From: an uncultured Gemmatimonadales bacterium
Lineage (GTDB): Bacteria; Gemmatimonadota; Gemmatimonadetes; JACCXV01; JAHWKZ01
DNA length: 64,000 nt
NCBI GenBank assembly: GCA_964619975.1
Contig: CAZUIY010000042.1
Location: 278 to 64,277 of the forward strand
Direction of reading: 5' to 3'
Made by a program: the position numbers and the translations under genes. Positions 38,341 to 41,088 of the stretch are shown here, one piece after another (within the stretch, counting starts at the first letter, position 1; every line of letters begins with the position of its first letter). The notes under the pieces were generated by a model. The model was not told the DNA's origin. It saw only the letters and a list, made by a program, of their open reading frames with translations, and searched no databases.

Positions 38341-38489
38341 TGGCGCGACTGGTTAAAACCGGCTTCGGTGCCTGGGTACTATTGCCTGAACCTGATTTTC
38401 TGCCAGTGCGCGATGGGAAAGGCAAATTCGGATTGTGGGATTGCAAACAGAGGAAACAAGTGGAGTTTGCAAAGGCTGAAAACACATGA
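38340..38489 (+). CDS. Small hypothetical protein (49 aa from GTG 38340; the tabulated alternative starts at 38280)
   Basis: It is coupled to terS by an ATGA overlap. The start is uncertain. Confidence 0.35.
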   Translation: MARLVKTGFGAWVLLPEPDFLPVRDGKGKFGLWDCKQRKQVEFAKAENT

Positions 38490-38920
38490 GCAAACGGATT
38501 GCATACTCGGTTGAGTTGGCGGCGGAAATATGCGCACGTGTCGCAGGAGGCGAACCGCTGACCGCAATAACCAGAGATAAGGATATGCCGAGTTATGCAG
38601 CTGTGTGCAAATGGTTACTGGAACACAATGAATTCGTAGAGATATACGCGCGCGCGAAGGAAGATTGCGCTGACTACCTGGCTGATGATTTGGTGCGCAT
38701 ATCTGATGAGTATCCTGTTCTTGATCCTAATGGAAAACTGGATTCCGCCTGGGTCCAATGGCAGCGAAACCGAATCGATGTGCGTAAATGGACGGCGGCA
38801 AAACTCAAGCCGAGAAAATACGGTGATCGGATCACGAACACACACGAAGGCGGCGATCCTGACAAGCCGATCCTACAGAATATTACCGTGTCATTTATTG
38901 GCACAAATGAGACAAAATAG
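38486..38920 (+). CDS. terS: Terminase small subunit
   Basis: The N-terminal HTH-like block reads ELAAEICARVAGGEPLTAITRDKDMPSYAAVCKWL. EIYARAKEDCADYLADDL is typical of this TerS family. It lies upstream of terL. Confidence 0.7.
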   Translation: MSKRIAYSVELAAEICARVAGGEPLTAITRDKDMPSYAAVCKWLLEHNEFVEIYARAKEDCADYLADDLVRISDEYPVLDPNGKLDSAWVQWQRNRIDVRKWTAAKLKPRKYGDRITNTHEGGDPDKPILQNITVSFIGTNETK

Positions 38921-38967
38921 GGCGATTGCCTAAATATCGGGCGATTCTAAGGCGTTCTAAGCGATTA
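38921..38967. repeat. Direct repeats GGCGATTGCCTAA / GGCGATTCTAA / GGCGTTCTAA / GCGATTA immediately after terS
   Basis: They were read directly at 38921-38933, 38940-38950, 38951-38960 and 38961-38967. Confidence 0.6.
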
Positions 38968-39175
38968 TTTTTACCGGGTCAAGGGGATAGTGTGGGGCGA
39001 ATGTAGTTTATTCGTCTTTTTTATTGCCTGAGTGGGAGAAAGTCTCACTCTGCCGCCGAGACGATTAAACCGAAGTGGGAAACGAGGGATAAATCATGGG
39101 CTGGTTCCCGATACTGAAAAACGCGGTTCCACCGAGACGCTATAAGTAACCTGTCTATTTTGGGTACTCCCTAAC

Positions 39176-39261
39176 TTACACTGTTATTTGTGTAACAATA
39201 GTATTCTTTTTGGTCTTTTATTGACACTTTTGTTTTTAAGCGTAAGATGTAAATCTTACAC
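39176..39261. promoter_or_regulatory. res-like recombinase binding sites overlapping the recombinase promoter
   Basis: The dyad TTACAC-N8-GTGTAA lies at 39176-39195 and the dyad GTAAGAT-GTAA-ATCTTAC at 39242-39259. They share the half-site CTTACAC. The promoter TTGACA (39221-39226), 17 nt, TAAGAT (39244-39249) overlaps the second dyad. Confidence 0.5.
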
Positions 39262-39278
39262 AACAACAGGAGAAAGCA

Positions 39279-39866
39279 ATGAAAGGCCAAAAAGTGGGTT
39301 ACAAGCGGGTGAGTACGGTAGATCAGAGTGTGGAAAGGCAACTTGAGGGGATCGAACTTGACAGAGTATTTGTTGATAGCGCGAGTGGCAAGGATACAAA
39401 TAGGCCGGGACTGCAAGATGCGGTCAAGTACGTGCGCGAAGGCGATACTCTCATCGTCCATTCGATGGATAGGTTAGCCAGGAACGTCGAGGACATGCTT
39501 CGTCTGGTGCGTGAAATGAACGGGAAGGGCGTAACGGTGCAATTCATCAAAGAGAATATGAGTTTTGCCGCTGGCAAAGATGACCCACGGGCGCATTTGA
39601 TGTTTGCCATGCTGGGCGCATTTGCACAGTTTGAGCGAGCCTTGATTCGTGAGCGGCAGAGGGAAGGCATTGCTATAGCCAAGACCAAGGGAAAGTACAA
39701 GGGGCGTCCACCATCATTAAAAGCGGAACATATAGCAGGAATTCGGGAGCGGGTAGCTACGGGCGTGGCGAAATCCAAGGTTGCGAGGGAATTTAAGATA
39801 AGCCGGGAAACCGTTTACCGAATACTCAGGGCAGATGACAACAACACAAGCGCAATTCCCGGCTAA
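39279..39866 (+). CDS. Small serine recombinase (resolvase/invertase family, 195 aa)
   Basis: The catalytic N-terminus reads VGYKRVSTVDQSVERQ. DRLARN, FAQFERALIRERQREGI and a C-terminal HTH (KVAREFKISRETVYRIL) are present. Confidence 0.92.
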   Translation: MKGQKVGYKRVSTVDQSVERQLEGIELDRVFVDSASGKDTNRPGLQDAVKYVREGDTLIVHSMDRLARNVEDMLRLVREMNGKGVTVQFIKENMSFAAGKDDPRAHLMFAMLGAFAQFERALIRERQREGIAIAKTKGKYKGRPPSLKAEHIAGIRERVATGVAKSKVAREFKISRETVYRILRADDNNTSAIPG

Positions 39867-41088
39867 GCTCCAATTCCTTTTCGAGCCGCACCGCTATAAA
39901 GTTTTGTACGGCGGAAGAGGTGGAGCAAAGAGTTGGGGAGTAGCAAGAGCATTGTTGATCCAGGGGGCTTCGCGCCCCCTTCGCATTTTGTGCGCCCGGG
40001 AATTGCAGAACTCCATCGCGGAGTCCGTCCACCATCTGCTTCAGGATCAGATCGGCCAACTCGGGCTGGATGGATTCTACGAGATCCAGAACCAGTTGAT
40101 TACCGGGAAAAACGGGACTGAGTTCATATTCGCCGGGCTGCGGAACAACGTCACGCGCATCAAATCGTTCGAGGGCGTCGATGTGGTGTGGGTCGAGGAG
40201 GCGCAGACAGTCAGCAAGTCAAGCTGGGAGACCCTGATACCTACCATACGCCGGGAAGGCTCCGAAATCTGGATCACGTTCAACCCGGAACTTGAGACGG
40301 ACGAGACCTACCAGCGTTTTGTCGTCAAGCCACCCGAGAAAGCCAGGGTGGAAAAGGTCAACTGGGACGACAATCCATGGTTTCCGGAAATCCTGCGGCG
40401 AGAGAAGGACGAACTCAAAGAGCGCGATCCTGACTCGTACCGCAATATCTGGCTGGGTGAGTGCCGCTCATCGCTGGAAGGAGCCATCTACGCCAAGGAG
40501 TTGCGCCAGGCAGCAGACGATGGCCGGATCATGAATGTCCCATACGATGCGCTCAAGCCCGTCCACACGTTTTGGGACCTGGGCTGGGCCGACAATACCA
40601 GCATATGGTTCGCGCAGGCGGTGGGGCAGGAACTGCGGCTCATCGACTACTATGCAAACAGTCTGGAACCGCTACAGCACTATATCCAGGTGCTACAGAG
40701 CAAGGGGTATATCTATGGTATCGACTGGCTTCCGCACGATGCAAAGGCAAAATCTCTCAGTACGGGCAAATCGATCGAGGAGATTATGTTGGCACTGGGG
40801 CGAAAGGTGCAGATTTGCGCGAACTTGTCCTTGTACGACGGTATCCAGGCGGTTCGCTCCGTATTCGGACGCTGTTATTTTGACGAAACCCGATGCGCCG
40901 AAGGACTCCAAAGCTTGAGGCACTACCGCTATGACGTGGACCCTGAGAGCAAACAATTGTCTGGCCGCCCATTGCACGATATCCACAGCCATGCAGCCGA
41001 CGCATTCCGCTACTTTGCCATCTCGATTGGAGAGGACACGCCGAACATGACAGCGCGAGGTATCAAGATGGTCGGGTGGCGGGCGTGA
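39835..41088 (+). CDS. terL: Terminase large subunit
   Basis: The Walker A-like motif reads YGGRGGAKSWGVA. VVWVEEAQ is Walker B, and a C-terminal nuclease region is present. Its start overlaps the recombinase 3' end by 32 nt. Confidence 0.9.
   Translation: MTTTQAQFPAKLQFLFEPHRYKVLYGGRGGAKSWGVARALLIQGASRPLRILCARELQNSIAESVHHLLQDQIGQLGLDGFYEIQNQLITGKNGTEFIFAGLRNNVTRIKSFEGVDVVWVEEAQTVSKSSWETLIPTIRREGSEIWITFNPELETDETYQRFVVKPPEKARVEKVNWDDNPWFPEILRREKDELKERDPDSYRNIWLGECRSSLEGAIYAKELRQAADDGRIMNVPYDALKPVHTFWDLGWADNTSIWFAQAVGQELRLIDYYANSLEPLQHYIQVLQSKGYIYGIDWLPHDAKAKSLSTGKSIEEIMLALGRKVQICANLSLYDGIQAVRSVFGRCYFDETRCAEGLQSLRHYRYDVDPESKQLSGRPLHDIHSHAADAFRYFAISIGEDTPNMTARGIKMVGWRA

What the first reader, a model, noticed from the sequence alone, without database searches (positions are those of the whole stretch)
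38921..39866. Autoregulated resolvase cassette wedged between terS and terL, with its 3' end overlapping the terL start
**Seen.**
- terS ends at 38920 and terL starts at 39835. Between them lie about 360 bp of non-coding DNA and a 195-aa serine recombinase gene.
- The last 32 nt of the recombinase gene overlap terL.
- Two dyads upstream share the half-site CTTACAC: TTACAC-N8-GTGTAA at 39176-39195 and GTAAGAT-N4-ATCTTAC at 39242-39259.
- The second dyad overlaps a TTGACA-17-TAAGAT promoter. This is the arrangement seen at res sites of Tn3/gamma-delta-type resolvases.

**Established knowledge.**
- Small serine recombinases resolve plasmid multimers or invert DNA segments. They are not typical phage integrases.
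- terS and terL are normally adjacent.

**Inference.**
- This may be a multimer-resolution system that supports plasmid-style maintenance.
- It sits where its expression or DNA rearrangement could also influence terminase expression.
Basis: partly seen in the sequence, partly recalled or inferred. Interest (0 to 1): 0.6.

Follow-up and report, generated by a model that had tools for sequence, protein, structure and literature searches.

The report
Plasmid-type resolvase cassette in conjugative phage-plasmid
The small recombinase gene between the two DNA-packaging genes is an ordinary transposon/plasmid-type "resolvase" with its complete three-part target site. It most likely keeps this circular phage, which also carries a full conjugation machine, as single plasmid copies; nothing suggests that it flips or rearranges the packaging genes.

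Summary
The coordinates are right: terS 38486-38920, a 195-aa serine recombinase 39279-39866, terL from 39835, with a 32-nt overlap.

The upstream region is a complete Tn21/Tn1721-type res site. Site II is 39191-39226 and its right end is the -35 box. Site III is 39241-39260 and holds the -10 box. The promoter spacer is 16 nt, not 17.

There is only one res in the replicon, so inversion is excluded.

The contig is a 65.5-kb circle. It carries a full phage, an RP4-like relaxase and type IV secretion (T4SS) set, and no integrase.

Two related lineages carry the same cassette in the same slot:
- One also has the T4SS, which IMG/VR had trimmed off as "host".
- The other shows at least the TraK/L/M-like module.

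Two cassette-less relatives carry tyrosine integrases instead.

Best reading: an autoregulated multimer-resolution system for the plasmid state, sitting in a mosaic accessory slot. A very stable RNA fold-back (z = -6.9) would hide the recombinase ribosome-binding site on late read-through transcripts; this is inferred.

It is a known kind of system in a new setting.

The parts
38486..38920 (+). terS (small terminase, Sf6 type); left border of the slot
   Evidence: Pfam PF20901, E 2.6e-34
38994..39018 (+). Terminator-like hairpin followed by a T-run, between terS and res. It is not conserved in relatives.
   Evidence: Consensus scan; fold energy -13.2 kcal/mol; relatives compared
39096..39149 (+). 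Mini-ORF MGWFPILKNAVPPRRYK with a GAGGGA Shine-Dalgarno-like sequence. It ends 2 nt before site I. It belongs to the slot backbone, not to the res cassette.
   Evidence: Read from the sequence. L003, which lacks rec, encodes ...MGFYRILKNAVP... and L011 encodes MGWYRVYPLPK at the same relative place.
39152..39180 (+). res site I, the inferred crossover site: TGTCTATTTTGGGTA|CTCCCTAACTTACA. The outer ends are TGT/ACA and the core is GGGTACTCCCT.
   Evidence: Aligns with site I of a Tn21-type res (CGTCAGGTTGAGGCA|TACCCTAACTTGATG in L128) and with 8 other homologues. It is the only such site in the replicon.
39191..39226 (+). res site II (inferred accessory site), TGTAAC...TTGACA. Its right end is the -35 box.
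   Evidence: Alignment to Tn21-type CGTCAG...TTGACA. The distance from site I differs from homologues by whole helical turns.
39221..39248 (+). rec promoter: TTGACA, 16-nt spacer, TAAGAT. The transcription start is expected near 39254-39257.
   Evidence: Promoter scan, 10 of 12 matches. The same -35/-10 placement is seen in 7 homologous res regions.
39241..39260 (+). res site III (inferred), CGTAAG-N8-CTTACA. It overlaps the -10 box and is the basis for autoregulation.
Evidence: Its right end lies a fixed 34-35 bp from the -35 end in all 7 homologues.
39206..39294 (+). RNA fold-back. 39206-39223 pairs with 39277-39294 (rec AUG). 39227-39234 pairs with 39265-39272 (Shine-Dalgarno AGGAG). The 5' arm lies upstream of the rec transcription start.
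   Evidence: RNAfold energy -36.9 kcal/mol, z = -6.91, 0 of 200 shuffles fold as well. Inverted repeat I2.
39279..39866 (+). rec: a 195-aa small serine recombinase of the TnpR type. All catalytic residues are present. About 10 aa of non-conserved tail run into terL.
   Evidence: Pfam. 56-60% identity to Tn21-type and other TnpR-like resolvases and 68-69% to Nitrosospira homologues. Tree. PDB alignments.
39835..41088 (+). terL (large terminase). Its first 32 nt overlap the rec tail.
   Evidence: Pfam PF04466, E 1.6e-42
39786..39881 (+). Long-range stem enclosing the terL start and the rec stop. Its significance is uncertain.
   Evidence: Inverted repeat I1, 22 nt, 82% complementary. Fold energy -31.7 kcal/mol, z = -3.44.

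Best explanation
The cassette is a Tn21/Tn1721-type site-specific resolution module, made of a three-subsite res (39152-39260) and its TnpR-like serine resolvase (39279-39866). It is a stable component of a small family of roughly 65-70-kb circular elements that are both tailed phages and conjugative plasmids.

**Proposed mechanism**
- In the plasmid (lysogenic) state, homologous recombination, including the element's own RecT/YqaJ system, joins sister copies into dimers.
- Resolvase dimers bound to sites I, II and III of two directly repeated res sites form the interwound synapse. They exchange strands at the centre of site I and give back monomers, so the copies can segregate.
- The topological filter imposed by sites II and III restricts the reaction to supercoiled circles. 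Linear packaging concatemers would be untouched.
- The gene is autoregulated because its -35 box is the right end of site II and its -10 box lies inside site III.
- On late read-through transcripts, an 18+8-bp RNA fold-back would hide the rec Shine-Dalgarno sequence and AUG, which should limit resolvase synthesis during lytic growth.
- The position between terS and terL reflects a lineage-wide mosaic accessory slot, not a role in packaging.

**Shown here**
- Gene and site homology.
- A single res.
- A circular, integrase-less, conjugative replicon.
- Conservation of the cassette in relatives.

**Inferred, not shown**
- Binding, catalysis, autoregulation and the fold-back effect.
For: **The gene**
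- Resolvase plus HTH_7 domains, with every catalytic residue aligned to gamma-delta and Tn3 resolvases.
- 56-60% identity to a Tn21-type TnpR that sits next to a TnAs3-family tnpA.
- It clusters with that group, far from Gin, Tn3/gamma-delta and Sin.

**The site**
- The upstream 110 bp aligns with the Tn21-type res (CCCTAACTT, TGTGTAA and TTTATTGACA are shared).
- Across 7 homologues the distance from the -35 end to the right end of site III is fixed at 34-35 bp.
- The distance from the centre of site I to the -35 end is 59.5, 69.5-71.5 or 79.5 bp. These steps are whole helical turns, as expected for a res synaptosome (spacing rule in PMC12217951).
- No second site within 10 mismatches exists in the 65,544-bp circle.

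**The replicon**
- The contig has a 141-bp terminal overlap.
- It encodes a MOBP relaxase, a VirD4-type coupling protein, TrbB/C/D/E/L/F/G/H/I, and TraL/TraM-like proteins.
- No PF00589 integrase lies on C42.
- Both phage/T4SS junctions are reproduced in an independent 40.7-kb Logan contig.

**The relatives**
- The same cassette sits in the same slot in L004/L005, L011-L013, L135 and L224.
- The L004 lineage lies on 68-kb contigs that carry the Trb genes after YqaJ-DUF1643.
- The L012 lineage has TraM/TraL/DUF5338.
- Close relatives without the cassette (L006, L007) have tyrosine integrases and no coupling protein.

**The fold-back**
- z = -6.91.
Against:
- Site boundaries rest on homology only.
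- Site I is 29 bp here against 30 bp in Tn21, and site III is 20 bp against 22 bp.
- No classical ParAB pair or plasmid Rep was identified. The only ParA-like protein is TraL-like, so stable plasmid lysogeny is itself inferred.
- A circular assembly is also what a circularly permuted headful phage gives.
- The integrase versus resolvase contrast rests on few lineages, and several records are fragments.
- In the wider survey of phage records carrying this type of recombinase, 9 of the 19 records estimated at least 90% complete do carry a tyrosine integrase. The gene is therefore not exclusive to non-integrating phages.
- The fold-back is strong only in this sequence. Homologues show weaker analogues (z from -0.3 to -3.1), and no covariation test was possible.
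Confidence: 0.7

Rival explanations
1. Cre/lox-like cyclisation. res lies about 230 bp downstream of terS, where pac sites of P22/Sf6-type phages usually lie. The first headful of a packaging series would then carry res in both terminally redundant ends. Resolvase would circularise the injected DNA, as Cre does for P1, possibly in addition to dimer resolution.
For: - The geometry fits: Sf6-type terS, P22-type portal, and res immediately after terS.
- Conserved short repeats lie directly after terS in three lineages.
- In the survey of other phage records, this type of recombinase lies 0.3-2.8 kb upstream of the packaging genes in four further lineages, none with an integrase.
- P1 Cre as a multimer resolver is cited in PMC7969092. 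The pac/lox geometry of P1 is from my own knowledge.
Against: - Resolvases with accessory sites II and III need a supercoiled substrate (established for Tn3/gamma-delta; PMC12217951). An injected linear molecule is a poor substrate.
- The phage has its own RecT/YqaJ system for recombinational circularisation.
- In the other lineages the recombinase lies upstream of terS. With rightward packaging, res would then not be duplicated.
- The pac site and the packaging direction are unknown here.
Confidence: 0.1
2. Inert hitch-hiker. The cassette is a remnant of a Tn21-family transposon or plasmid module that landed in a permissive slot and does nothing useful for the phage.
For: - The terS-terL slot is mosaic. 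Relatives hold unrelated small genes there, or nothing, with gaps of 68 to 1603 bp.
- The closest named homologues are chromosomal orphan resolvases in Nitrosospira.
- The tree does not resolve the window's rec as sister to the other phage copies.
Against: - No tnpA exists anywhere in the assembly.
- The ORF, all catalytic residues, all three subsites and the embedded promoter are intact in at least four lineages that have diverged to 64-76% protein identity.
- Helical phasing is preserved.
- The cassette co-occurs with the conjugative, integrase-less lifestyle.
Confidence: 0.1
3. Small serine integrase. The enzyme would integrate the phage into a host site resembling site I, as resolvase-like integrases of some filamentous phages do (from my own knowledge).
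For: - It is the only site-specific recombinase on the replicon.
- Several complete phage genomes carrying this type of recombinase lack any tyrosine integrase.
Against: - Accessory sites II and III impose intramolecular resolution.
- The locus is uninterrupted, with terS on one side and terL on the other, in every contig seen, including 68-kb ones.
- No site-I-like sequence occurs elsewhere in the assembly. However, the contig is probably mis-binned (53% against 68% G+C), so that test is weak.
Confidence: 0.05
4. Invertase or regulatory switch. Recombination would rearrange DNA around the terminase genes, or resolvase bound at res would gate terL expression.
For: - The rec promoter reads into terL with no terminator before it.
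- A 22-nt stem brackets the terL start.
Against: - There is a single res and no inverted partner.
- The protein is much nearer to resolvases than to Gin.
- The overlap and spacing with terL are not conserved. In L004 a strong terminator-like hairpin precedes terL.
Confidence: 0.03

Closest known systems
res/TnpR cointegrate-resolution system of Tn21/Tn1721-subgroup Tn3-family transposons
   Same: - The resolvase is 56-59% identical.
- res lies upstream of the gene in the order I-II-III, with III proximal.
- The site I core (..GG.A..CCCTAACTT..) is shared, and site II ends in TTGACA, which is the -35 box.
- The -10 box lies in site III, and the site II to site III spacing is identical.
   Different: - No transposase and no transposon ends.
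- The site I to site II spacing is one helical turn shorter.
- The half-sites read TTACAC rather than TGACA/TGTCAG.
- The protein carries a non-conserved C-terminal tail.
- The host replicon is a phage-plasmid, and the expected substrate is plasmid dimers rather than transposition cointegrates.
Plasmid multimer-resolution systems based on serine resolvases (for example RP4/RK2 ParA-res; SGI1 Res-res, PMC12217951)
   Same: - A single res plus an autoregulated small serine resolvase on a circular conjugative element.
- The proposed function is the same.
- The conjugation module here is RP4-like (TraI/MobP relaxase, TraL, Trb genes).
   Different: - Sequence identity to RP4 ParA was not measured.
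- Here the module lies inside a phage late operon, between terS and terL.
Cre/loxP of phage-plasmid P1
   Same: A site-specific recombinase of a plasmid prophage that resolves multimers (PMC7969092). The site lies near the packaging start (from my own knowledge).
   Different: Cre is a tyrosine recombinase with a simple 34-bp site and no topological filter. This is a serine resolvase with accessory sites.
DNA invertases Gin, Cin and Hin
   Same: The same protein superfamily and the same size. They are common in phages.
   Different: Only about 100 bits to Gin, against about 230 bits to TnpR-type proteins. There is no pair of inverted sites.

Membership tests
Small serine recombinases (resolvase/invertase family) | N-terminal catalytic domain with the Ser nucleophile and the conserved Arg, Asp and Glu residues | tested here: met
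   PF00239, E 3.5e-37. Y8, R10, S12, D64-R65...R68 and E125-R126 align with catalytic residues of gamma-delta and Tn3 resolvases. They are invariant among 8 homologues.
Small serine recombinases (resolvase/invertase family) | C-terminal helix-turn-helix DNA-binding domain; total length about 180-210 aa | tested here: met
   PF02796, E 5.8e-13, residues 142-185; 195 aa in total
Tn21/Tn1721-type res-resolvase resolution systems | Resolvase orthologous to Tn21-subgroup TnpR | tested here: met
   56-59% identity over the full length to the TnpR next to a TnAs3-family tnpA. Same cluster in the tree, though support is modest (83/82).
Tn21/Tn1721-type res-resolvase resolution systems | res of about 110-130 bp upstream of the gene with three dyad subsites, site III proximal, and helically phased | tested here: met
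   Alignment with a Tn21-type res and 8 other family members. Fixed II-III geometry and whole-turn steps between I and II. Protein binding was not tested.
Tn21/Tn1721-type res-resolvase resolution systems | Resolution of two directly repeated res sites on supercoiled DNA | not testable with these tools
   Needs an in vivo or in vitro recombination assay
Tn3-family transposon (as a mobile element) | DDE transposase TnpA and terminal inverted repeats flanking the module | tested here: not met
   tblastn with a Tn21-type TnpA finds nothing in the contig or in the whole assembly. The flanks are terS and terL. Terminal inverted repeats were not searched for.
DNA invertases (Gin/Cin/Hin/Pin) | Two crossover sites in inverted orientation bracketing an invertible segment | tested here: not met
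   No second site within 10 of 29 mismatches, and no other similarity to the res region, in the 65.5-kb circle
Phage-plasmid multimer-resolution function | The host replicon is an autonomously maintained circle without an integration module | tested here: inconclusive
   - Circular assembly, no integrase, conjugation genes.
- No classical ParAB or Rep was recognised.
- Circular assembly also fits a permuted virion genome.
Small serine integrases | Integrated copies split at the recombinase-proximal site | tested here: not met
   All contigs carrying the locus show it intact between terS and terL

The most novel reading that the evidence does not exclude
In this phage genus the res-resolvase cassette would be part of a lifestyle module. 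Lineages that carry it are conjugative plasmid-prophages, and sister lineages carry a tyrosine integrase instead. Its recurring place beside the packaging genes would not be an accident: res close to pac would fall in the terminal redundancy of first-headful virions. The same enzyme would then circularise incoming DNA, as Cre/lox does, and resolve plasmid dimers. An RNA fold-back would silence it on late transcripts.
Probability: 0.12. Interest if true: 0.7.

Novelty: new member of a known kind. Interest (0 to 1): 0.42.

Why it matters
Taken alone, the cassette is a textbook resolution module. Its value lies in what it marks and what it could be used to test.

- It is one of the few plasmid-maintenance functions recognisable on a replicon that is at once a complete tailed phage and a complete conjugative plasmid.
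- It is conserved in related 68-70-kb elements from several other metagenome samples.
- The contrast with integrase-bearing sister prophages gives a concrete case of a switch between integrative and plasmid/conjugative lifestyles within one phage lineage.
- The work also shows that provirus-trimming pipelines can cut the conjugation module off as "host". Such hybrids are then hidden in viral databases.
- The predicted fold-back that shields rec from late read-through is a simple, testable regulatory device, analogous to the protection of IS10 transposase from outside transcription (from my own knowledge).

Tried and rejected
- **Invertase idea.** I searched the whole circle for a partner of site I (up to 10 mismatches), for the core motif, and by short-word BLAST. 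Nothing was found. One 3-mismatch core match inside terL is at chance level, with about 5 expected.
- **Transposon remnant.** No TnpA homologue was found.
- **Chimeric assembly.** Rejected, because an independent 40.7-kb Logan contig spans both junctions and relatives share the layout.
- **Rfam.** Only one sub-threshold chance hit over 38800-40100.
- **Terminator inside terL as a rec-specific stop.** Rejected. The 39962-39981 hairpin is also present in relatives that lack rec.
- **T4SS in IMG/VR records.** The search was negative. This turned out to be a trimming artefact for at least the L004 lineage.
- **Tn21 footprinting paper (PMC554474).** Not held.
- **Metagenome records.** The genome search could not reach them.
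- **Covariation test of the fold-back.** Not possible. The closest relative (L224, 76%) has a different, shorter pairing.
- **Exact-protein look-ups** for the TraL-like and TrbB proteins failed, probably because of the start-codon choice.

Full report
**1. What is in the sequence**

- terS is 38486-38920 (Sf6_terminase, E 2.6e-34).
- The recombinase is a 195-aa ORF at 39279-39866 (Resolvase, E 3.5e-37, plus HTH_7, E 5.8e-13).
- terL is 39835-41088 (Terminase_3, E 1.6e-42).
- The recombinase and terL overlap by 32 nt.

Both dyads exist as described. CTTACAC occurs only twice in the 64 kb, both times here. Strict half-site matches number 4 within 110 bp against 0.12 expected, the densest cluster in the window. 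The promoter is TTGACA, 16 nt, TAAGAT, so the spacer is 16, not 17.

**2. The upstream region is a complete Tn21-type res**

The nearest annotated relatives of the protein are TnpR-type resolvases, at 56-60% identity. One of them sits directly upstream of a TnAs3-family tnpA and next to a class 1 integron, a Tn21-like layout. The closest homologues in named genomes are orphan resolvases in the Nitrosospira multiformis chromosome, at 68-69%.

I lined up the 150 bp upstream of ten family members and read the Tn21-type res from the plasmid locus. One architecture recurs:
- A palindromic core AGGGTAyACCCT with outer TGTC../..GACA ends.
- A site of about 35 bp that ends in TTGACA.
- A 16-17-nt spacer, a -10 box, and a short dyad ending in CTGACA.
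- The Shine-Dalgarno sequence and ATG.

The window shares CCCTAACTT, TGTGTAA and TTTATTGACA with the Tn21-type sequence. By homology the subsites are:
- Site I, the crossover site, at 39152-39180.
- Site II at 39191-39226. Its right end is the -35 box.
- Site III at 39241-39260. It holds the -10 box.

Two geometric regularities argue for function:
- The distance from the -35 end to the right end of site III is 34-35 bp in all seven sequences measured.
- The distance from the centre of site I to the -35 end is 59.5 bp (window), 69.5-71.5 bp (L011, L004, L085, Tn21 type) or 79.5 bp (Nitrosospira). These are steps of one helical turn.

All catalytic residues are present and invariant across homologues. 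In a tree the protein sits with the Tn21-type, Nitrosospira and phage copies. Gin, Tn3/gamma-delta and Sin lie on long branches.

**3. One site only**

No second sequence within 10 of 29 mismatches of site I exists in the 65,544-bp circle, and nothing else resembles the res region. No Tn3-family transposase exists in the assembly. Inversion and transposon membership are both excluded.

**4. The replicon**

- The contig has a 141-bp terminal direct overlap, so it is circular or circularly permuted.
- Window 4.2-22.4 kb encodes a TraI/MobA(P) relaxase, a NikA-like protein, and TraL- and TraM-like proteins. It also encodes a VirD4-type coupling protein, a TraF-type peptidase, a lytic transglycosylase and a full Trb/VirB set.
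- The rest is a phage:
  - RecT/YqaJ/SSB and an HTH_36 initiator.
  - The terminase genes and a P22-type portal.
  - A major head protein, tail fibre and internal virion proteins.
  - A 2,444-aa polyvalent protein.
- No tyrosine integrase lies on the contig, and this is its only serine recombinase.
- An independent assembler's 40.7-kb contig spans both phage/conjugation junctions, so the hybrid is not a chimera.
- The contig has 53% G+C against 68% for the bin. Its assignment to this bin is doubtful, and searches of the "own genome" say little about the true host.

**5. Relatives**

Among 80 viral contigs found through terL, the terS-terL gap ranges from 68 to 1603 bp. It is a mosaic slot holding zinc-ribbon ORFs, a 142-aa ORF and other small genes.

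The res-rec cassette occupies this slot in L004/L005, in L011-L013, and in L135 and L224. Protein identity to the window's recombinase is 64-76%, and every copy is intact.

IMG/VR lists two of these records as "proviruses" of 51 and 36 kb, but the source contigs are 68,072 and 70,148 bp. Walking out from the YqaJ-type gene of the L004 lineage shows the following order in three independent assemblies, one of 68,211 bp:
- DUF1643, DUF5131 and an XRE regulator.
- TrbB, TrbC, VirB3 and VirB4.
- TrbL, VirB8 and VirB9.

The conjugation module had been trimmed away as host DNA. The L012 lineage shows TraM, TraL-like and DUF5338 genes next to its giant protein and SSB.

Two close relatives without the cassette (L006, L007) are proviruses. 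Judging from their record numbers they come from isolate genomes. They carry tyrosine integrases at one end and no coupling protein.

The cassette therefore travels with the conjugative, integrase-less form of this phage lineage. The sample is small and several records are fragments.

**6. Mechanism**

The best-supported reading is an autoregulated multimer-resolution system for the plasmid state (confidence 0.7). Three points bear on it:
- The element's own RecT/YqaJ recombination would generate dimers.
- A three-subsite res confines the reaction to directly repeated sites on one supercoiled circle. Linear packaging concatemers would be spared, and integration or inversion disfavoured.
- Autoregulation follows from the promoter being built into sites II and III, as in the whole family.

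An additional, inferred layer is an RNA fold-back. RNA from 39196-39304 folds into one long hairpin (-36.9 kcal/mol, z = -6.91, 0 of 200 shuffles as stable). In it, 39206-39223 pairs with the AUG region and 39227-39234 pairs with the AGGAG. The 5' arm lies upstream of the expected start of the rec promoter, about 39255. Only read-through transcripts from the late operon would therefore be closed. Homologues show weaker pairings of the same kind (z from -0.3 to -3.1), and covariation could not be tested.

**7. Rivals**

- **Cre/lox-like cyclisation (0.10).** res lies next to the probable pac region, which would allow cyclisation of first-headful DNA. Against it stand the supercoiling requirement of such resolvases, the phage's own RecT system, and other lineages where the gene lies upstream of terS.
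- **Inert hitch-hiker (0.10).** This is unlikely given intact, phased, conserved copies in several lineages.
- **Integrase (0.05) and invertase or switch (0.03).** These are contradicted by the uninterrupted locus in all contigs and by the single site.

**8. Verdict**

Resolution and plasmid maintenance are supported. Rearrangement of the terminase region is not.
- This is a new member of a known kind. The element as a whole, a family of conjugative phage-plasmids, is the more remarkable object.

Noticed in passing
window 1-64000 (contig C42, 65,685 bp); loci L130, L131, L219-L222: - The element belongs to a family of circular conjugative phage-plasmids of about 65-70 kb.
- A relative at about 75% terL identity lies on 68-kb contigs from several samples and has the same Trb genes at the same place.
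- IMG/VR lists it as a 51-kb 'provirus' because the conjugation module was trimmed off as host DNA.
   Followed up: partly
contig C42 compared with the rest of the assembly: - C42 has about 53% G+C and the bin has 67.8%, so the contig is probably mis-binned.
- The nearest named homologues of the recombinase are in Nitrosospira multiformis (68-69%), which I recall as having about 54% G+C.
   Followed up: partly
window 39962-39981 (inside terL, about 130 nt after its start): - A G+C-rich hairpin GGGGGC-N5-GCCCCC is followed by TTCGCATTTTGTGCGC.
- It is conserved in many relatives, with and without rec (L003, L004, L011, L013, L016, L019). The loop sequences and the encoded residues differ among them.
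- It is absent in L006, L007, L008, L010 and L014.
- It could be an attenuator, a packaging signal, or neither.
   Followed up: partly
window 39096-39149: A 17-codon mini-ORF (MGWFPILKNAVPPRRYK) has its own Shine-Dalgarno-like sequence. The peptide ILKNAVP recurs in L003, which lacks the recombinase, so it belongs to the slot backbone.
   Followed up: partly
window 38921-38970; L004 2796-2850; L011 1690-1745: The first 50 nt or so after the terS stop share G(G/A)GCG(A/T)TYTAAGCGATT in three diverged lineages. L004 adds a perfect TTGCACAA-N3-TTGTGCAA dyad. This may be a terminase recognition site or a regulatory site.
   Followed up: no
window 39786-39881: A 22-nt stem (82% complementary) closes a 46-nt loop that contains the terL Shine-Dalgarno sequence and ATG and ends at the rec stop codon. 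The fold has z = -3.4. It might couple terL initiation to translation of rec, or it might be chance.
   Followed up: partly
G005 (record of L007) 453-563 and 1419-1841: A 35-residue fragment 75% identical to the recombinase lies next to the tyrosine integrase, at the edge of this cassette-less provirus.
   Followed up: no
L212 838-1086 (relative of the L004 lineage): A gene with a precomputed hit to the Acb2/Tad1 hairpin family (anti-defence sponge type) lies among the first genes upstream of terS in the relative. I did not look for a counterpart in the window.
   Followed up: no
loci L191, L200, L202, L208 (other viral lineages): Tn21-like small recombinases lie 0.3-2.8 kb upstream of the terS/terL genes in four further phage lineages. 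Three of these records are estimated complete and one 84% complete, and none has a tyrosine integrase. This placement near the packaging module is recurrent but unexplained.
   Followed up: partly
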